From a virus (Duplodnaviria > Heunggongvirae > Uroviricota > Caudoviricetes): a stretch of 4,366 bases of DNA. Below the pieces are notes generated by a model. The model saw only the letters and a list, made by a program, of their open reading frames with translations. It searched no databases and was not told where the DNA came from. The position numbers and the translations under genes are program-made. Numbering within the stretch: position 1 is the stretch's first letter; each line of letters opens with the position of its first letter. Positions 136 to 4,366 of this stretch are shown here, one piece after another. The stretch is taken from IMG/VR virus record IMGVR_UViG_3300029253_000163; one strand, written 5' to 3'.

Positions 136-320
136 TGCCAGCATCCTTTTTGTATCGGACGTAAACGGGCCAGCATTGAAAGAATGCATATTTTATTTAA
201 TAGCTCCCGTTCGTGTTTTCTCTTGTTAATGGCATCTTCAGTAAATACAGGGTTACTGATAGTGACACCAATTTCAAAACAACCTTCAGANNNNNNNNNN
301 NNNNNNNNNNNNNNNNNNNN
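132..320 (-). CDS. dicB: DicB cell-division inhibitor; start codon and first ~10 codons lie inside the masked N run, so 320 is inferred
   Basis: Minus-strand translation of 290..135 gives SEGCFEIGVTISNPVFTEDAINKRKHERELLNKICILSMLARLRPIQKGCWQ, then TGA at 134..132. I recognise this as the C-terminal 52 aa of the 62-aa DicB. Ten missing N-terminal codons place the ATG near 320. The ORF track's plus-strand ORF 58..372 is its antisense shadow. Confidence 0.85.
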   Translation of the reverse strand, partial: XXXXXXXXXXSEGCFEIGVTISNPVFTEDAINKRKHERELLNKICILSMLARLRPIQKGCWQ

Positions 321-351
321 NNNNNNNNNNNNNNNNNNNNNNNNNNNNNNN
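291..351. other. Masked or unknown bases (61 N); hides the dicB start codon and RBS
   Basis: Run of n in the sequence. Confidence 0.95.
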
Positions 352-487
352 GTGCCTGGTGCCTCCAGGTGACGTTAACCAGTTAACAATTAACGCCGGA
401 TACAGAGAATCCACCCATAACACTGTTTTTGGTTTTAACTGTTCCGCGTGCGCTCAGCCGCATTCACCACATCACAAAATTCACTTT

Positions 488-530
488 AAAAAGGGCGGCA
501 GAGCAGTCACGGAGTAAAACTGATACCGCC
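488..530 (-). terminator. Intrinsic terminator forming the DicF 3' end (GC stem plus U5)
   Basis: On the minus-strand RNA, GGCGG (530..526) and CCGCC (498..494) can pair, followed by UUUUU (492..488). Read-through would be needed for dicB expression. Confidence 0.55.
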
Positions 531-545
531 AAACGTCACCAGAAA
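488..545 (-). ncRNA. dicF: DicF small regulatory RNA (Hfq-dependent antisense sRNA targeting ftsZ and other mRNAs)
   Basis: Minus-strand sequence UUUCUGGUGACGUUUGGCGGUAUCAGUUUUACUCCGUGACUGCUCUGCCGCCCUUUUU matches the DicF sequence as I recall it. It lies between the upstream ORFs and dicB, as in the K-12 dicB operon. Exact 5' end is set by processing and is approximate here. Confidence 0.85.
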
Positions 546-676
546 ATTGATAACAGAGGGCGTTGCAGCGGGGTTGTCACTTAAGCGTATGGTCAACCTG
601 ACAACTCGGTGTCCTCAACGGGGAAGGAATAACCCCGCCATACTTACCGCCGCGCCATTTCGCGGGTTGCCACAAC

Positions 677-744
677 CGGAAGCGCACGGTCGAATTAAAT
701 TTAACGACACCGTACAGTGAGACGAACTTCGCCGTGCGCTTTCG
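677..744. repeat. Long imperfect inverted repeat (about 14-bp arms, 40-nt spacer) in the untranslated leader upstream of dicF
   Basis: Positions 677-690 (ccggaagcgcacggt) pair with 731-744 (gccgtgcgctttcg): 12 Watson-Crick plus 2 G-T/U pairs. Shorter GC hairpins lie nearby at 650-665 (CCGCG/CGCGG) and 621-637 (GGGG/CCCC). Confidence 0.6.
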
Positions 745-820
745 TGTTGTGTGCCTGCTTTTAACCACGTCAGGCGAGGTGGTATCCTTCTTATCCCGAA
801 TAACCAAGAAGGAAATCTAT

Positions 821-1021
821 ATGACTAAAGAAGAATTTGTCTCTTATATTTTTGATAAAACGGTTGAAATGTATGCCGCTACTTACGGGTCCTGTAATCC
901 TCTGAATAAACCAGAGGGGAAAGATGATTTCGACAAAATTTACCGCTTCTTGGAGGACCGCTATATCAAAAGGTTAGAGGACGCAGGGATCAAATCCCCA
1001 GTGAAGTCACCATTGTCCTGA
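821..1021 (+). CDS. Hypothetical 66-aa hydrophilic protein encoded antisense to the dicB operon
   Basis: ATG at 821 preceded by AAGGA (7-nt spacing); the ORF track's 734 start is an upstream alternative-start extension. Translation MTKEEFVSYIFDKTVEMYAATYGSCNPLNKPEGKDDFDKIYRFLEDRYIKRLEDAGIKSPVKSPLS. Overlaps the 3' end of the convergent 121-aa ORF by 32 nt. No homolog recognised and no clear promoter found. Confidence 0.4.
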   Translation: MTKEEFVSYIFDKTVEMYAATYGSCNPLNKPEGKDDFDKIYRFLEDRYIKRLEDAGIKSPVKSPLS

Positions 1022-1355
1022 GAACTTGCAGGACGTCATGATCGTAACTTCCATCCAAACCGCGACGGCAAATTGCTTCTCGTATTACCGGAAGCAGTTC
1101 GCTGGAAATCTCGGTGCATATTTCACCTGATAATACGCCTGGCTCAAGTGAGAATATTGGTGAACTTACGGTCTTGGTCTCGACAGTTTCAGAGTCAGTG
1201 CCAACATTATAAAGCTCAACGAAAGCGGTCTTGATTTTCCGGGCCAGATCTTTTGCTGGCTCGCTTGCAATATCTTTCCCGATTTCTCGCAGCACAGAAT
1301 GCAATGTATGAGCTGCTGTTTTCTGTACATCAGACGGTAAATCTTTAAATTCCAT
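990..1355 (-). CDS. Hypothetical 121-aa protein in the K-12 ydfB/ydfC position
   Basis: ATG at 1355 with GAGG 6 nt upstream; the track's 1367 start lacks an SD. Translation MEFKDLPSDVQKTAAHTLHSVLREIGKDIASEPAKDLARKIKTAFVELYNV... The N-terminal half looks like a helical soluble protein. Same strand as dicA and dicB, so presumably part of the leftward early operon. Confidence 0.55.
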   Translation of the reverse strand: MEFKDLPSDVQKTAAHTLHSVLREIGKDIASEPAKDLARKIKTAFVELYNVGTDSETVETKTVSSPIFSLEPGVLSGEICTEISSELLPVIREAICRRGLDGSYDHDVLQVLRTMVTSLGI

Positions 1356-1383
1356 CGTCAGCCTCATCAGTCAGTGTTTCTGG

Positions 1384-1521
1384 CTAACCAGCAACGCGCG
1401 CCAGATTCGGTTTNNNNNNNNNNNNNNNNNNGGTATATGTCATCGCGGTGAACGTACCGTCCTGGTTGGGGAACACGCCACATACCAGAGATTCGCTGTT
1501 GCCAAGATCGATAGTATCCAT
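1384..1521 (-). CDS. Hypothetical small protein (about 45 aa) in the ydfA position; 6 codons masked by N
   Basis: ATG at 1521 with GAGG 6 nt upstream. Translation MDTIDLGNSESLVCGVFPNQDGTFTAMTYT-(6 masked)-KPNLARVAG, stop TAG at 1386..1384. The track's 1575 start is a GTG extension without an SD. First ORF downstream of the OL-like operators. Confidence 0.5.
   Translation of the reverse strand: MDTIDLGNSESLVCGVFPNQDGTFTAMTYTXXXXXXKPNLARVAG
1414..1431. other. Masked or unknown bases (18 N) inside the ydfA-position ORF
   Basis: Run of n in the sequence. Confidence 0.95.
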
Positions 1522-1599
1522 GCTGACCTCATTTCCCCTTAACGCCGGGGTAGCGGAACTGTTTGCTGAGAACACCGTGCGGTGTCTTGATGGAAAGTA

Positions 1600-1653
1600 A
1601 TTTAGAATAACCTAACATGAGAGGCAAGTGTTTTTTGTTAGATTGATCTAACA
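1600..1653. promoter_or_regulatory. OL-like region: perfect operator TGTTAGA-N4-TCTAACA (1636-1653), a degenerate copy (1600-1617) and a candidate leftward promoter for the ydfA-dicF-dicB operon
   Basis: 1636-1653 is TGTTAGAttgaTCTAACA, extendable to a 26-bp palindrome (1632-1657). 1600-1617 is aTTTAGAataacCTAACA (5/7 and 6/7 half-site matches). On the minus strand TTGCCT-17-TAAATT (about 1624..1596) overlaps the degenerate operator. Same half-sites as the OR operators. Confidence 0.55.
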
Positions 1654-1689
1654 AAAAGGGTGGGCGCAACTAATCACTTGAAAAGAATG

Positions 1690-2097
1690 TTATTTTATTG
1701 ATTTATTTTTACGCGCTTTAAGCATTTCTTCGAAGAGTTTGTTGAAGTTTTCTACTCTTGCGCGCATTTCAGACAGCAAGGCTTCCTGCTCGGAAGATGG
1801 AAGAGCATCGAATAATTCGATCAATTCTTTGTGGTTGGGAGTTAGCTCTGTTTCCACATGAAGTTCTTGTGCAGGCACTGGTGCCTTGTCTTCGTCACCA
1901 AACATTAGCCATGTAGGTGAGCACTTCAGAGCATCCGCTAAAGCAAACAATCGTTTTCCGACTGGCTGGGTTTCGTCTCTTTCCCATTGTGAAATTGTGA
2001 CGTGAGCAACTCCAGCGAGGCGCGCAGCTTCTCGTTGTGTTAAGCGTAATTCTTTTCGTCGCGCCAGAACTCGCTGGCCTAGGGTTCTTGTATCCAT
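1690..2097 (-). CDS. dicA: DicA-type immunity repressor: N-terminal XRE/Cro-C1 HTH, short C-terminal domain, no LexA-like peptidase domain
   Basis: 135-aa ORF with HTH segment LRLTQREAARLAGVAHVTISQWERDE. The C-terminal part (LFALADALKCSPTWLMFGDEDK...NFNKLFEEMLKARKNK) matches recalled E. coli DicA. Divergent from a cro-like gene with palindromic operators on both sides. Confidence 0.9.
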   Translation of the reverse strand: MDTRTLGQRVLARRKELRLTQREAARLAGVAHVTISQWERDETQPVGKRLFALADALKCSPTWLMFGDEDKAPVPAQELHVETELTPNHKELIELFDALPSSEQEALLSEMRARVENFNKLFEEMLKARKNKSIK

Positions 2098-2164
2098 AGT
2101 TAGGTAATTCTAATTTTTCTTGACTTAGGTATCCCGCGCACAATAATGTTAGAAAAGTCTAACA
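2098..2164. promoter_or_regulatory. OR-like divergent control region: perfect operator TGTTAGA-aaag-TCTAACA (2147-2164) and a degenerate operator (2098-2115)
   Basis: 2147-2164 is a perfect inverted repeat over the dicC -10 and start site. 2098-2115 is aGTTAGGtaatTCTAAtt, directly upstream of the dicA ATG and overlapping a minus-strand TAGAAT -10-like hexamer (2112..2107), which would make the dicA transcript nearly leaderless. Confidence 0.6.
2120..2147 (+). promoter_or_regulatory. Candidate sigma70 promoter for dicC (TTGACT -16- AATAAT)
   Basis: -35 TTGACT at 2120-2125, -10 AATAAT at 2142-2147. The start site would fall inside the perfect operator. SD AGAGGGGG at 2165-2172 precedes the ATG at 2178. 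Confidence 0.5.
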
Positions 2165-2177
2165 AGAGGGGGCTTTG

Positions 2178-2405
2178 ATGCTTAAAGTTGACGCAATTAC
2201 TTTTTTTGGCAGCAAAACAAAGCTTGCCAATGCCGCAGGAGTGAGACTGGCAAGTGTTGCTGCTTGGGGGATACTGGTTCCTGAAGGTCGCGCGATGCGT
2301 CTACAGGAGGCATCTGGCGGGGAGCTTCAGTATGATCCCAAAGTTTATGACGAATATCGTAAGACGAAGCGGGCGGGGCGGTTGAACAATGAAAATCACT
2401 CCTGA
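2178..2405 (+). CDS. dicC: DicC, Cro-like regulator
   Basis: ATG at 2178 (the track's 2175 start is TTG) with SD AGAGGGGG. The 75-aa product MLKVDAITFFGSKTKLANAAGVRLASVAAWGILVPEGRAMRLQEASGGELQYDPKVYDEYRKTKRAGRLNNENHS matches recalled DicC. Divergent from the repressor. Confidence 0.85.
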   Translation: MLKVDAITFFGSKTKLANAAGVRLASVAAWGILVPEGRAMRLQEASGGELQYDPKVYDEYRKTKRAGRLNNENHS

Positions 2406-2910
2406 ACAGGCTCGTGAGGCTCTGGATGCCTGGATATGTCGACCAGGAATGACACAGGAGCAGGCGACGATATTAATCACTGAAGCATTCTGGGCTTTGA
2501 AAGAGCGCCCGAACATCGATGTTCAGCGTGTCACATATGAAGGTGGCGCGGTTGATCAGCGAGCGCTTAGCGTTAATCGAGTGAAGATATTCGAACGCTG
2601 GAAGGCTATCGACACCAGGGATAAGCGTGAAAAGTTCACAGCGCTAGTGCCTGCAATTATGGAGGCTATCCGGATTAGTGATTTCAGGTTGTATCGTGAG
2701 ATCAGTGATGGAAAAAGTATTACGTACATGATCGCCGGGTTAAATAAAGAATATGGCGATGTGGTGGAATCCGGACTGCTTTTTGCAGATCCTGCCGTTG
2801 TAGATCGTGAAACTGACGAACTTATAGAAAAAGCAATTGCTTTCAAGCTTGCGTATCGACAGCAATACCAACAAAAAGCTGGATGGAATTATGAGTCTTC
2901 TTTTTGCTGA
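2389..2910 (+). CDS. YdaT-family (CII-like) early regulatory protein
   Basis: 173-aa ORF whose start overlaps the dicC stop by 17 nt. N-terminus MKITPEQAREALDAW... and the internal LVPAIMEAI motif resemble Rac-prophage YdaT as I recall it. It sits in the cII position between cro and the replication gene. Confidence 0.7.
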   Translation: MKITPEQAREALDAWICRPGMTQEQATILITEAFWALKERPNIDVQRVTYEGGAVDQRALSVNRVKIFERWKAIDTRDKREKFTALVPAIMEAIRISDFRLYREISDGKSITYMIAGLNKEYGDVVESGLLFADPAVVDRETDELIEKAIAFKLAYRQQYQQKAGWNYESSFC

Positions 2911-3856
2911 ACGCCCACTGGTTATAAACACGCAGCTGGCAATGAAAATCGGCTTAAACGAAGCCATTGTTTTGCAACAACTGCACTACTGGTTGAGAGA
3001 TACCAACTCCGGTATGGAATGTGATGGTGTTCGCTGGATTTATAACACAACGGAACAATGGCTGGAACAGTTCCCATTCTGGTCAGAGTCAACGTTAAAG
3101 CGCGCGTTTGCAAGTCTGAAAACGCTGGGGCTTTTGCGTTGTGAAAAGCTCAATAAATCAAAGCGCGATATGACCAATTTCTACACGATCAACTATGGGA
3201 GCGAGCTTTTAGATGGTGGCAAATTGAACGAATCCATCGGTTCAAAATGCGCCGCTCCATCAGGTCAAAATGACACGATGGAAGAGGTCAAAATGAAACG
3301 CTCCATTGGTTCAAAACGATCCAATGTCATCGGGTCAAAATGGCCTGATGATCTTACAGAGAATACAACAGAGATTACTACAGAGAATAAAAACACTTTT
3401 CGTCCGGAAGCTTCGCAACCGGACCCGCAGACGACTGAACAGGATTTTTTAACCCGGAACTCCGACGCGGTTGTGTTTAGTGCGAAAAAACGCCAGTGGG
3501 GTAGCAGGGAGGATTTGGCGTGTGCGCAGTGGATCTGGGGGCGGATCGTGGGTCTCTACGAACAGGCAGCCAGTGATGATGGCGAGATCATGCGACCAAA
3601 AGAGCCTAACTGGACTGCCTGGGCCAATGACGTGCGCACAATGCGGATGCTGGATGGCAGAAGCCACAGACAAATTTGCGAAATGTTTGGTCGGGTTCAG
3701 CGAGATCCATTCTGGGTAAAAAACATCATGAGCCCGTCAAAGCTCCGCGAAAAATGGGACGAACTGGTCATCCGCCTGGGACGTTCACCTGTACAGCGTT
3801 GTGTTAATCATATTTCTGAACCGGATACAGAAATTCCGCCTGGTTTCAGAGGATAA
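2891..3856 (+). CDS. Phage replication initiator (O-like): N-terminal winged-HTH domain, iteron-encoded linker, C-terminal domain
   Basis: ATG at 2891 (the track's 2837 start is TTG), overlapping the upstream gene by 20 nt. The N-terminal segment LVINTQLAMKIGLNEAIVLQQLHYWL...FPFWSESTLKRAFASLKTLGLL has the pattern of phage replication-initiator HTH domains. Five iterons sit inside the gene, as in lambda O. Family assignment is by recall. Confidence 0.8.
   Translation: MSLLFAERPLVINTQLAMKIGLNEAIVLQQLHYWLRDTNSGMECDGVRWIYNTTEQWLEQFPFWSESTLKRAFASLKTLGLLRCEKLNKSKRDMTNFYTINYGSELLDGGKLNESIGSKCAAPSGQNDTMEEVKMKRSIGSKRSNVIGSKWPDDLTENTTEITTENKNTFRPEASQPDPQTTEQDFLTRNSDAVVFSAKKRQWGSREDLACAQWIWGRIVGLYEQAASDDGEIMRPKEPNWTAWANDVRTMRMLDGRSHRQICEMFGRVQRDPFWVKNIMSPSKLREKWDELVIRLGRSPVQRCVNHISEPDTEIPPGFRG
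3233..3342 (+). repeat. Origin-like iteron array: five direct repeats (core GGT(T)CAAAAYG) at about 23-bp spacing inside the replication gene
   Basis: tccatcggttcaaaatg (3233-3249), tccatcaggtcaaaatg (3256-3272), gaagaggtcaaaatg (3281-3295), tccattggttcaaaacg (3302-3318), gtcatcgggtcaaaatg (3326-3342). They are followed by an A-rich stretch with three ACAGAGA(A/T)T copies (3355-3388). Confidence 0.7.
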
Positions 3857-3896
3857 GTGTTGATTTCAGGTCATGAGGTAATTTTAAGGGGGAGTT

Positions 3897-4366
3897 GTGG
3901 CAAAAGTTTTTACACAAGAAGAGCGGGAAAAAATTAAAGGGCAGGTGGTGGAACTCGTGCGCCAGAGCGGTCGTGAGACGTTACGGCAACTGGAAGCTAA
4001 AACAGGTGCGACTAGATATCTGATGAGCGTTCTTGCCAGAGAGCTGGTAGCCAGTGGCGATGTATACAACTCCGGCTACGGGTTATTCCCGTCTGAACAG
4101 GCGCGTAAGGACTGGCAAAACGCCCGCAAAAAACTCTCGAGGGCAAAGGTGAAGAAACCTGCTGTGGTTGATCCGGACCTTATCTGGTCATTACCTGATG
4201 GAGAAATACGCCGCTACGACAGTCGTCTAAACATAATCTGTCGCGAGTGCCGGAAGAGCGAAGTTATGCAGCGTGTTCTGACGTTTTATCGTAAGCGTAC
4301 AGCGAGGGCCGTATTGACGGGGATGTGTTATTCAGCTGGCAGTGCTATGCGCCACGGAAGCAGTTC
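3897..4366 (+). CDS. Hypothetical protein with GTG start, 3' end beyond the window; occupies the slot after the replication initiator
   Basis: SD AAGGGGGAG (3886-3894) then GTG at 3897. The frame is closed by in-frame stops at 3861, 3879 and 3885 and open for 156 codons to the window end. Translation VAKVFTQEEREKIKGQVVELVRQSGRETLRQLEAKTGATRYLMSVLARELVASGDVY... No Walker A motif in the visible part. Absent from the ORF track because no stop occurs within the window. Confidence 0.55.
   Translation, partial: MAKVFTQEEREKIKGQVVELVRQSGRETLRQLEAKTGATRYLMSVLARELVASGDVYNSGYGLFPSEQARKDWQNARKKLSRAKVKKPAVVDPDLIWSLPDGEIRRYDSRLNIICRECRKSEVMQRVLTFYRKRTARAVLTGMCYSAGSAMRHGSS

What the first reader, a model, noticed from the sequence alone, without database searches (positions are those of the whole stretch)
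990..1575. Cargo between dicA and dicF may differ from K-12 ydfA-ydfB-ydfC
K-12 has three short ORFs here (ydfA 51 aa, ydfB 42 aa, ydfC 72 aa, from memory). This window has one small ORF and then a single continuous 121-aa ORF, roughly the combined span of ydfB plus ydfC. Either the K-12 pair are two fragments of a gene that is intact here, or this prophage carries different cargo. Genes in this slot of lambdoid phages are often host-takeover or exclusion functions.
Basis: inference. Interest (0 to 1): 0.5.

Follow-up and report, generated by a model that had tools for sequence, protein, structure and literature searches.

The report
Swapped accessory genes upstream of DicF
Between the repressor gene and the DicF small RNA, this prophage carries two uncharacterised small genes facing each other instead of the K-12 genes ydfB and ydfC; this is ordinary mosaic variation in a prophage, and K-12 has not split a larger gene.

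Summary
On the minus strand there is a ydfA-like DUF1391 ORF (1367-1521, partly N-masked) followed 11 nt later by a 121-aa ORF (990-1355).

The "K-12 fragments" reading is refuted:
- The 121-aa protein shows no similarity to YdfB or YdfC by DNA, BLASTP or profile comparison.
- ydfB and ydfC are separate genes kept together in 2280 of 5426 complete E. coli genomes.
- ydfB sits next to the 121-aa gene in some prophages.

The "different cargo" reading is right. Window 763-1335 is a hypervariable slot with fixed junctions. This version occurs in E. coli B/BL21/C (391 genomes) and in phage mEp460_ev081.

A conserved 66-aa gene (821-1021, plus strand) converges on the 121-aa ORF and overlaps its 3' end by 32 nt.

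The 121-aa ORF is a chimera:
- A 52-aa N-terminal module is shared by many proteins in this slot.
- A C-terminal module travels with the 66-aa gene in three different early-operon contexts, and always faces it.
- A conserved TGnTATCCT element lies 40-47 nt before each 66-aa gene start.

Function is unknown. My best inference is an antagonistic pair expressed in opposite prophage states, which also brakes read-through into DicF/DicB. Both genes are already annotated as hypothetical proteins. Interest is modest.

The parts
990..1355 (-). 121-aa ORF (UniRef name Ybl81; WP_001320327.1). It is the second cistron of the DicA-controlled dicBF-type operon.
   Evidence: ORF list. BL21 annotation. Full-length match to phrog_33007 at 1.2e-82. 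Homologues. Purifying selection.
1200..1355 (-). N-terminal module, residues 1-52 (MEFKDLP...AFVELY), predicted as a helical hairpin. It is shared by a family of proteins of different lengths that occupy this slot.
   Evidence: Alignment A1. phrog_9419/1363/2151/6937 match residues 1-52 only. Variants of 52, 97, 124, 198 and 212 aa. AF2 helices 8-25 and 32-51 at pLDDT about 75. dN/dS 0.09.
1116..1199 (-). Linker, residues 53-80, predicted disordered. It is the most variable part of the ORF.
   Evidence: pLDDT below 50 for residues 54-86. dN/dS 0.48.
990..1115 (-). C-terminal module, residues 81-121, two predicted helices. It co-occurs with the 66-aa gene in every context found.
   Evidence: 36% identity to the 129-aa protein in L085 (E 5e-7). 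60% identity to the Cedecea ORF P0036. DNA homology to L086 starts at window 1112.
821..1021 (+). 66-aa ORF (WP_000159335.1, phrog_34441). It converges on the 121-aa ORF, and the 3' ends overlap by 32 nt.
   Evidence: Homologues of 54-73% identity with the same length. pN 0.17 against pS 0.68. AF2 helical hairpin at pLDDT 81.
764..813 (+). Putative promoter and RBS of the 66-aa gene. It has a CCAC-N10-GTGG palindrome (764-782), an extended -10-like TGgTATCCT (780-788) and a GAAGGA Shine-Dalgarno (808-813).
   Evidence: Conserved across three unrelated contexts (A3). TGnTA[T/C]CCT is present 40-47 nt before the ATG in 141 of 141 occurrences, representing 11 distinct upstream sequences. The generic promoter scan did not call it.
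1367..1521 (-). ydfA-like DUF1391 ORF, the first cistron. It is N-masked at 1414-1431.
   Evidence: Pfam PF07151 at 5.2e-14. BL21 WP_000379591.1. Mask length against BL21.
1356..1366 (-). 11-nt intercistronic spacer containing GAGG, the Shine-Dalgarno of the 121-aa ORF.
   Evidence: Read directly from the sequence.
545..762 (-). Conserved DicF leader block. Its upstream edge at 762/763 is the fixed left junction of the variable slot.
   Evidence: 94.7% identical to K-12, and homology stops at 762. The same boundary is seen in the 212-aa and 52-aa types.
493..544 (-). DicF small RNA.
   Evidence: Rfam RF00039, 76.7 bits against a gathering score of 48, E 2.5e-16.
1690..2097 (-). DicA-like repressor, 57% identical to K-12 DicA. 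The operon promoter and operator region lies in 1522-1689.
   Evidence: Pfam HTH_3. BLASTP against K-12 DicA.

Best explanation
**What is shown.**
- Window 763-1335 is a mosaic accessory slot in the DicA-repressed early-left (dicBF) operon of Qin-like lambdoid prophages.
- K-12 fills this slot with ydfB and ydfC. This E. coli B-type prophage fills it with unrelated cargo.
- That cargo is a 121-aa ORF co-directional with the operon, plus a convergent 66-aa gene that overlaps its 3' end.
- The 121-aa ORF is a chimera. Its first 52 residues are the slot's resident N-terminal module, which occurs alone or fused to other tails in other prophages. Its last ~41 residues belong to a small mobile cassette made of the C-terminal module, the 66-aa gene and that gene's upstream element.
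- The cassette also sits one or two genes downstream of an early promoter in two other phage backgrounds. In all three, the 66-aa gene points against early transcription.

**What is inferred about expression.**
- The 121-aa protein is made only when DicA repression is lifted, as the second cistron after ydfA.
- The 66-aa gene is driven by its own extended -10 promoter and can be expressed in the repressed prophage.
- No terminator separates the two genes. Transcription of one therefore runs antisense through the other.

**Most likely mechanism (inference, about 25% for the specifics).**
- The two small acidic, soluble, helical proteins form an antagonistic pair tied to prophage state. The 66-aa protein acts in the lysogen.
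- On induction or infection, the 121-aa protein counteracts it through the C-terminal module, and convergent transcription switches it off.
- In the repressed state, 66-aa transcription dampens leaky read-through into the toxic DicF/DicB/YdfD genes.

**How the confidence value is built.** It is about 0.95 for different cargo and a mosaic slot, about 0.8 for the chimera and cassette, about 0.5 for the expression logic, and about 0.25 for the antagonistic-pair mechanism.
For: **Different cargo.**
- DNA similarity to K-12 stops at 762 on one side. On the other it runs from dicC/dicA into ydfA, up to the N-mask at 1432.
- There is no protein or profile similarity to YdfB or YdfC.
- The proteins belong to different PHROGs.

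**Hypervariable slot with fixed junctions.**
- The 212-aa type and both 52-aa types (with and without ydfB) lose homology at 762/763 and at about 1336; K-12 shares the 762/763 junction.
- At least eight arrangements occur among 80 ydfA loci.
- Counts in 5426 genomes are DicF 3944, ydfB+ydfC 2280, the 212-aa type 597 and this type 391.

**Real genes.**
- Purifying selection acts on all three modules.
- Both are annotated CDSs.
- Both are present in the intact phage mEp460_ev081.

**Chimera and cassette.**
- The N-terminal module is shared with proteins of 52-212 aa.
- The C-terminal module faces the 66-aa gene in 63 of 63 loci that hold a full-length 66-aa homologue. These include L085 (a different N-terminus, after an S24 CI-like repressor) and L086/L087 (C-terminal module only, between cro and a cII-like gene).
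- DNA homology to those loci covers window 765-1112.
- The cassette is found with at least four dicA/dicC immunity types.

**Own promoter.** TGnTA[T/C]CCT lies 40-47 nt before the ATG in 141 of 141 occurrences, in three otherwise unrelated upstream contexts.

**Other points.**
- No terminator-like site lies between the genes.
- Both proteins are soluble and acidic, with no transmembrane segment.
Against: - There is no expression, interaction or phenotype data of any kind.
- The promoter is a conserved motif only. The generic sigma-70 scan did not call it, and its -35 region is poor.
- Linkage of the C-terminal module with the 66-aa gene could be purely physical, because their 3' ends share DNA.
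- Only three independent contexts exist, and two of them rest on one or two contigs.
- In Cedecea the C-terminal-module ORF has lost its stop codon and reads through the 66-aa gene on the opposite strand, so it may be decaying there.
- The AF2 model of the 121-aa protein is poor (pLDDT 56).
- No fold or profile match gives a functional hint.
- There are no hits in Pfam, NCBIfam or PADLOC.
Confidence: 0.6

Rival explanations
1. K-12 ydfB and ydfC are two fragments of an ancestral gene that survives intact here as the 121-aa ORF.
For: Only two things fit. The combined span is similar (377 against 366 nt), and the position after ydfA is the same.
Against: - No DNA similarity, no BLASTP similarity and no profile similarity.
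- ydfB and ydfC are kept as separate genes in 2280 genomes and also occur singly.
- ydfB and the 121-aa gene are neighbours in L039 and L146.
- ydfB also precedes the 52-aa N-module gene in L049 and L059-L061.
Confidence: 0.01
2. The 121-aa and 66-aa genes are functionally independent accessory genes. They travel together only because their 3' ends share 32 nt of DNA and recombination moves the block as a unit.
For: - The overlap links them physically.
- The slot is a recombination hot spot with many unrelated occupants.
- In L042 the two genes differ in divergence (98% against 83% identity), which indicates breakpoints inside the block.
- In Cedecea the C-terminal-module ORF looks degraded while the 66-aa gene is intact.
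Against: - The pairing persists down to 36% (C-terminal module) and 57% (66-aa) identity.
- It persists across three different insertion contexts and with three different N-terminal arrangements.
- Both partners remain under purifying selection.
- The orientation relative to the early promoter is the same in all three contexts.
Confidence: 0.35
3. The main role of the 66-aa locus is in cis. Its promoter fires against the early operon and limits leaky expression of DicF/DicB by transcriptional interference or antisense RNA. The protein itself is secondary.
For: - The geometry is convergent and has no intervening terminator.
- A conserved promoter-like element is present.
- The downstream genes are highly toxic when the operon is induced (PMC5069750).
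- The same opposing orientation is seen in three contexts.
Against: - Strong purifying selection acts on the 66-aa protein sequence itself (pN 0.17 against pS 0.68), and its length is conserved. A pure cis element would not need this.
- Most DicF-bearing prophages do without the cassette.
Confidence: 0.15
4. The cassette is a toxin-antitoxin-like addiction or abortive-infection module. One of the two products (the C-terminal module or the 66-aa protein) is toxic and the other neutralises it.
For: - The pair is compact and obligately linked.
- A palindrome lies in the promoter region and could be an autoregulatory operator.
- The location is a prophage.
Against: - There are no matches to PADLOC, Pfam or NCBIfam toxin or antitoxin models.
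- The layout is convergent, not the co-directional operon of type II systems.
- Neither protein has a recognisable toxin fold or a membrane segment.
Confidence: 0.1
5. One or both ORFs are not real genes. They would be chance ORFs in the long untranslated leader of DicF.
For: - Neither has a known domain.
- K-12 literature describes a long untranslated region before dicF (PMC5069750).
Against: - Purifying selection is seen in the annotated frames.
- ORF length is conserved in homologues down to 45-57% identity.
- Both have good Shine-Dalgarno sequences.
- PGAP calls both.
Confidence: 0.02

Closest known systems
K-12 Qin prophage dicBF operon (ydfA-ydfB-ydfC-dicF-dicB-ydfD)
   Same: - The operon skeleton and order are the same: a DicA-like repressor, a DUF1391 first gene, the DicF leader, DicF, then dicB and ydfD.
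- The DicF block is 94.7% identical to K-12.
   Different: - The ydfB-ydfC segment is replaced by unrelated genes.
- One of the replacement genes lies on the opposite strand.
- The repressor is only 57% identical, so this is a different immunity type.
212-aa (phrog_2151) and 52-aa proteins at the same slot in other dicF-bearing prophages, including those of O157:H7 strains
   Same: - They share the N-terminal 50-residue module.
- They start at the same position 11-15 nt after ydfA (or after ydfB).
- The slot junctions are the same.
   Different: - The C-terminal parts are unrelated.
- There is no convergent 66-aa gene.
Morons and mosaic accessory genes of lambdoid phages (general concept from the phage-genomics literature; recalled, not tested here)
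   Same: - These are small genes of unknown function inserted between conserved blocks with sharp junctions.
- They have a different GC content (0.44 against 0.51-0.53 in the flanks).
- The 66-aa gene appears to have its own promoter.
   Different: - No flanking terminator was found.
- Half of the cassette is fused in frame to a resident gene and is not autonomous.
P22/lambda sieB-esc-sas arrangement in the early-left operon (recalled from the literature; an analogy of logic only)
   Same: - A lysogen-expressed function and an early-operon-encoded counter-function are encoded in overlapping DNA near the start of the pL operon.
- Antisense transcription is involved.
   Different: - There is no sequence similarity.
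- SieB is a larger membrane protein. The 66-aa protein is soluble with no transmembrane segment.
- Here the two reading frames lie on opposite strands and are not nested in one frame.
Face-to-face promoters with transcriptional interference (coliphage 186 pR/pL) and 3'-overlapping convergent type I toxin-antitoxin pairs (recalled)
   Same: The transcription units are convergent and their transcripts must overlap.
   Different: - Both partners here encode conserved proteins.
- No small antisense RNA and no toxin has been identified.
- None of this was tested.

Membership tests
YdfB (phrog_2061) | Sequence similarity to K-12 YdfB | tested here: not met
   BLASTP finds nothing at E<=100. hhalign probability is 0.1%. 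The proteins fall in different PHROGs.
YdfC (phrog_1744) | Sequence similarity to K-12 YdfC | tested here: not met
   BLASTP finds nothing at E<=100. hhalign probability is 0.4%. The proteins fall in different PHROGs.
phrog_33007 (function unknown) | Full-length profile match | tested here: met
   Residues 1-121 match profile positions 1-121 of 121, E 1.2e-82.
N-terminal MEFKDLP module family (phrog_9419/1363/2151/6937) | Match confined to the first ~52 residues, with the gene placed directly after ydfA or ydfB | tested here: met
   E 4e-15 to 7e-3 over residues 1-52. Alignments A1 and A4. Position in 80 loci.
phrog_34441 (66-aa protein, function unknown) | Full-length profile match | tested here: met
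   Residues 1-66 match profile positions 1-66 of 66, E 1.5e-50.
DUF1391 / YdfA | Pfam PF07151 above the gathering score | tested here: met
   52.1 bits against a cut-off of 27.3. The C-terminal part is hidden by the N-mask.
DicF RNA (RF00039) | Covariance-model score above the gathering score | tested here: met
   76.7 bits against 48, full length 1-52.
dicBF-type early-left operon | Gene order repressor - ydfA - variable genes - DicF - dicB - ydfD on one strand | tested here: met
dicBF-type early-left operon | A single DicA-repressed transcript covering the 121-aa ORF | not testable with these tools
   Inferred from the 11-nt spacing, the shared strand and the K-12 literature (PMC5069750).
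Moron (autonomous prophage-expressed gene) | Own promoter | tested here: inconclusive
   A conserved TGnTATCCT lies 40-47 nt before the ATG in all contexts. The generic scan did not call it, and no transcript data exist.
Moron (autonomous prophage-expressed gene) | Own terminator | tested here: not met
   No terminator-like site lies downstream of the 66-aa ORF.
Known anti-phage defence or toxin-antitoxin systems | Match to a PADLOC or Pfam toxin, antitoxin or defence model | tested here: not met
   No PADLOC hits. No Pfam or NCBIfam hits.
SieB-type superinfection exclusion | Membrane protein with sequence similarity to SieB | tested here: not met
   No Pfam or PHROG hit with that annotation. 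The maximum 19-residue hydropathy is 0.31 for the 66-aa protein and 1.04 for the 121-aa protein.

The most novel reading that the evidence does not exclude
The C-terminal module and the 66-aa gene would form a previously undescribed mobile "state-switch" cassette of lambdoid phages. It is a convergent gene pair with overlapping 3' ends that inserts one or two genes downstream of an early promoter. The lysogen-expressed partner (66 aa) would provide a host or exclusion function and would silence leaky early transcription. The early-operon partner would dock onto resident proteins by in-frame fusion and neutralise the 66-aa protein on induction. In-frame capture of cassette tails by the 52-aa N-terminal module would be a general way in which this slot diversifies.
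Probability: 0.2. Interest if true: 0.55.

Novelty: new member of a known kind. Interest (0 to 1): 0.3.

Why it matters
- **K-12 annotation.** ydfB and ydfC are bona fide separate accessory genes, not a broken gene.
- **Strain differences.** E. coli B/BL21/REL606 and C strains carry a different, uncharacterised gene pair directly upstream of DicF. Results on the dicBF operon from K-12 cannot be transferred to B strains without checking. This applies especially to anything that depends on transcription reaching DicF and DicB, because the B-type cargo includes a gene and a probable promoter pointing against the operon.
- **Material for phage-host studies.** The slot has fixed junctions, a shared 52-aa N-terminal module and swappable tails. 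It is a compact natural library of small early phage proteins that could be screened for host-takeover, anti-defence or exclusion activity.
- **Limits.** This is expected mosaicism in a lambdoid prophage. Variation of the genes flanking dicF has already been noted in print (PMC5069750).

Tried and rejected
- **Fragment hypothesis.** Tested at DNA, protein and profile level and rejected.
- **Function from domains.** Pfam, NCBIfam, PADLOC and PHROG annotation gave nothing for the 121-aa or 66-aa proteins, or for the 52-, 124-, 198- and 212-aa relatives.
- **Function from structure.**
  - AF2 of the 121-aa protein is low confidence (pLDDT 56).
  - AF2 of the 66-aa protein is a plain helical hairpin (pLDDT 81).
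  - Foldseek against PDB and BFVD gave no match with E<=0.001.
  - Profile searches against PDB sequences gave only a non-significant archaeal-histone hit (E 0.055; also NCBIfam E 0.047). I discard this hit as chance.
- **N-terminus of the L085 protein.** A relation between the N-terminus of the L085 129-aa protein and the N-terminal module was tested and not supported (hhalign probability 0.15%).
- **Widening the C-terminal-module family.**
  - The alignment was too divergent for a pattern scan.
  - The profile search of 5.8 billion proteins returned nothing at E<=0.01.
  - The metagenome scan with the 66-aa profile found only near-identical copies.
- **First dN/dS attempt.** Close relatives had too few substitutions to separate frames. 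More distant homologues were needed.
- **Literature.** Searches for the accessions, PHROG ids, 'ybl81' and DUF1391 found nothing relevant.
- **Source genome.** It could not be pinned down. The best matches are E. coli B/C-type strains at about 99% identity over 352-4290.
Full report
**What is in the window.**
- The window is the immunity and early region of a Qin-like lambdoid prophage of the E. coli B/BL21/C type, read in the opposite orientation to the K-12 map.
- It is 99.5% identical to BL21(DE3) over window 352-4193.
- On the minus strand, in order, lie a DicA-like repressor (1690-2097; HTH_3), a DUF1391/YdfA-like ORF (1367-1521), a 121-aa ORF (990-1355), the DicF RNA (493-544; 76.7 bits against a gathering score of 48), and dicB and ydfD at the left end.
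- On the plus strand lie a dicC/cro-like gene, a YdaT-like gene, a replication gene and a DUF977 gene.
- RefSeq annotates the 121-aa ORF as WP_001320327.1, a hypothetical protein. UniRef calls it 'Ybl81'.
This is a 66-aa ORF on the plus strand (821-1021, WP_000159335.1), whose 3' end overlaps that of the 121-aa ORF by 32 nt.

**Checking the observation.**
- The description is correct: a small ORF is followed by a continuous 121-aa ORF.
- The 121-aa ORF starts 11 nt after the ydfA-like stop codon and has a GAGG Shine-Dalgarno. An in-frame ATG four codons upstream would give 125 aa.
- The ydfA-like ORF looks frame-shifted in the window only because the N-run at 1414-1431 is 18 nt long. BL21(DE3) has 16 nt at this place, and the ORF has the same 150-nt length in the other relatives examined.
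- The other N-run (291-351) is 61 nt where BL21 has 63.

**Is it ydfB plus ydfC?** No.
- Against K-12, DNA similarity runs from dicC/dicA into ydfA (window 2668-1432, 76%) and resumes at window 762 (762-352, 94.7%). Nothing aligns between those blocks.
- BLASTP of the 121-aa protein against YdfB and YdfC gives no alignment at E<=100.
- A 15-sequence family profile against each gives hhalign probabilities below 1%.
- The proteins fall in different PHROGs: 33007 against 2061 and 1744.
- ydfB and ydfC are in different frames and 29 nt apart.
- The K-12-type segment is at least 80% covered in 2280 of 5426 complete E. coli genomes. Variants carry only ydfB or only ydfC.
- ydfB lies immediately upstream of the 121-aa gene in L039 and L146, and upstream of a 52-aa relative in L049 and L059-L061.
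- The "fragments of one gene" reading is therefore refuted, and the "different cargo" reading stands.

**The slot.**
- The 212-aa type and the 52-aa types with and without ydfB all lose homology to the window at two places. One is 762/763, a junction K-12 shares. The other is about 1336, just after the first seven codons, MEFKDLP.
- Between these junctions the content varies freely. Among 80 IMG/VR loci retrieved with YdfA, at least eight arrangements occur. The ydfA-to-DicF distance ranges from 694 to 1203 nt.
- In complete E. coli genomes, DicF is present in 3944. The ydfB+ydfC type is in 2280, the 212-aa type in 597 and the type seen here in 391.
- Variation of the genes flanking dicF among prophages has been noted before (PMC5069750). 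That paper also states that ydfA, ydfB and ydfC have unknown function.
- The cargo seen here also sits in an apparently complete lambdoid phage genome, mEp460_ev081. That genome has an intact integrase, excisionase and full-length exonuclease VIII gene.

**Anatomy of the cargo.**
- The 121-aa protein has two conserved parts joined by a variable linker that is predicted to be disordered.
- Residues 1-52 (MEFKDLP...AFVELY) are predicted as a helical hairpin at pLDDT about 75.
  - These residues are shared by a small family restricted to the Enterobacteriaceae and close relatives.
  - Only 29 clusters match among 1.84 billion representative proteins.
  - Family members are 52, 97, 124, 198 or 212 aa long and have unrelated tails.
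  - In most of the 80 prophage loci examined, the family gene starts 15 nt after a ydfA or ydfB homologue.
- Residues 81-121 have a different history. They recur in a 129-aa protein with an unrelated N-terminus (L085; 36% identity, E 5e-7). They also recur in a Cedecea ORF that consists of this module alone (L086/L087, P0036; 60% identity).
- In both of those loci the module faces a homologue of the 66-aa gene (57% and 73% identical).
- Across all loci fetched with the 66-aa protein, 63 of 63 full-length copies face the C-terminal module.
- Nucleotide homology to the two foreign contexts covers window 765-1112. This is exactly the C-terminal module, the 66-aa gene and about 55 nt upstream of it.
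- The unit that moves is therefore that cassette. The 121-aa ORF is an in-frame fusion of the slot's resident N-terminal module with the cassette's C-terminal module.
- The cassette is found with at least four different dicA/dicC immunity types.

**Are they genes?**
- Comparisons with close relatives had too few substitutions to decide.
- With more distant homologues the signal is clear:
  - 66-aa gene: pN 0.17 against pS 0.68.
  - C-terminal module: pN 0.22 against pS 0.78.
  - N-terminal module: dN/dS 0.09.
- ORF lengths are conserved at 45-57% identity.
- Both proteins are acidic (pI 5.0 and 5.3), soluble and lack transmembrane segments.

**Expression logic (inferred).**
- The 121-aa ORF is the second cistron of the operon that DicA represses in K-12 (PMC5069750). 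It should be made only on derepression.
- Upstream of the 66-aa gene, three otherwise unrelated contexts share a block CCAC-N10-GTGG followed by TGgTATCCT. This fits an extended -10 promoter (TGn plus TATCCT).
  - The motif TGnTA[T/C]CCT lies 40-47 nt before the ATG in 141 of 141 occurrences, representing 11 distinct upstream sequences.
  - The generic sigma-70 scan did not flag it, and its -35 region is poor.
- No terminator-like site lies between the two genes. Transcripts from the two promoters must therefore overlap, and polymerases must collide.
- In all three contexts the cassette lies one or two genes downstream of an early promoter (after ydfA; after a CI-like S24 repressor; between cro and a cII-like gene). 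In each, the 66-aa gene opposes early transcription.

**Most likely mechanism, and its rivals.**
- I commit to the following as the best guess, at roughly 25% for the specifics.
  - The 66-aa protein is made in the repressed prophage.
  - The 121-aa protein is made on induction. Its C-terminal module counteracts the 66-aa protein while convergent transcription shuts the 66-aa gene off.
  - In the repressed state, 66-aa transcription dampens leaky read-through into DicF/DicB/YdfD, whose expression is highly toxic (PMC5069750).
- This is the logic of the P22/lambda sieB-esc-sas arrangement, which occupies the same part of lambdoid genomes. That comparison rests on recalled literature. There is no homology, and the 66-aa protein is not a membrane protein.
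- The main rival is that the two genes are independent and linked only by their shared 3' DNA (0.35).
- Lesser rivals are a purely cis-acting brake (0.15, weakened by selection on the protein) and a toxin-antitoxin-like module (0.10, with no model hits and an atypical layout).
- None of these can be separated without experiments.

**Comparison with what is known, and novelty.**
- The locus is a member of the dicBF-type early-left operon. Order, DicF, DUF1391 and the repressor were all tested and met.
- The cargo proteins belong to PHROGs of unknown function and to no Pfam, NCBIfam or PADLOC family.
- No solved or predicted structure gives a lead.
- No paper in the searched library mentions these proteins.
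- The headline finding, different cargo from K-12, is ordinary prophage mosaicism in well-sequenced laboratory strains, and both genes are already annotated as hypothetical proteins.
- What is new is modest. It comprises the chimeric nature of the 121-aa ORF, the obligate convergent pairing of its C-terminal module with the 66-aa gene in three contexts, the conserved promoter-like element, and the fixed junctions of the slot.
- I rate this as a new member of a known kind, with interest 0.3.

Noticed in passing
window 3235-3350: Five iteron-like direct repeats of 23 nt (CATCrGGTCAAAATG...) lie at 23-nt spacing inside the 322-aa replication-initiator-like ORF (2888-3856, plus strand). This is probably the prophage replication origin, arranged as in the lambda O gene.
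   Followed up: partly
window 291-351 and 1414-1431: There are two runs of N. The first hides the dicB start codon and RBS, with 61 N where BL21 has 63 nt. The second lies inside the ydfA-like ORF, with 18 N where BL21 has 16 nt. The second makes ydfA look frame-shifted. The length differences (-2 and +2) suggest the mask lengths are not literal.
   Followed up: partly
window 1690-2097 and 1522-1689: The DicA-like repressor is only 57% identical to K-12 DicA. The intergenic region carries its own palindrome, ttgttagattgatctaacaa (about 1636-1655). This prophage is probably heteroimmune to K-12 Qin.
   Followed up: partly
window 352-467 (minus strand): A sub-threshold Rfam match to STnc100 lies in the spacer between DicF and dicB (28.8 bits against a gathering score of 47, E 0.0016). 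This stretch is also conserved in K-12.
   Followed up: no
L086 3568-3897 (Cedecea prophage): Here the C-terminal-module ORF has lost its stop codon. It reads for 109 aa through the whole 66-aa gene on the opposite strand (P0036). One of the two frames there may be decaying, or the overlap may be tolerated.
   Followed up: no
P0037 (204 aa, from the representative search): One family member carries two tandem copies of the 52-aa N-terminal module (residues 1-50 and 117-168). This suggests the module is an independent folding unit.
   Followed up: no
NZ_AP028869.1 2532827-2534234 (hit H58): In E. coli JBEHAAB-19-0176 an IS1B element is inserted within the cassette region. The match to window 770-1400 is split into two pieces.
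   Followed up: no
L090 (JAGZPX010000007.1) and L092 (DAINBV010000046.1): Contigs labelled as Veillonella parvula and Geobacteraceae MAGs carry this enterobacterial prophage segment at 91-100% protein identity. These are most likely binning contamination.
   Followed up: no
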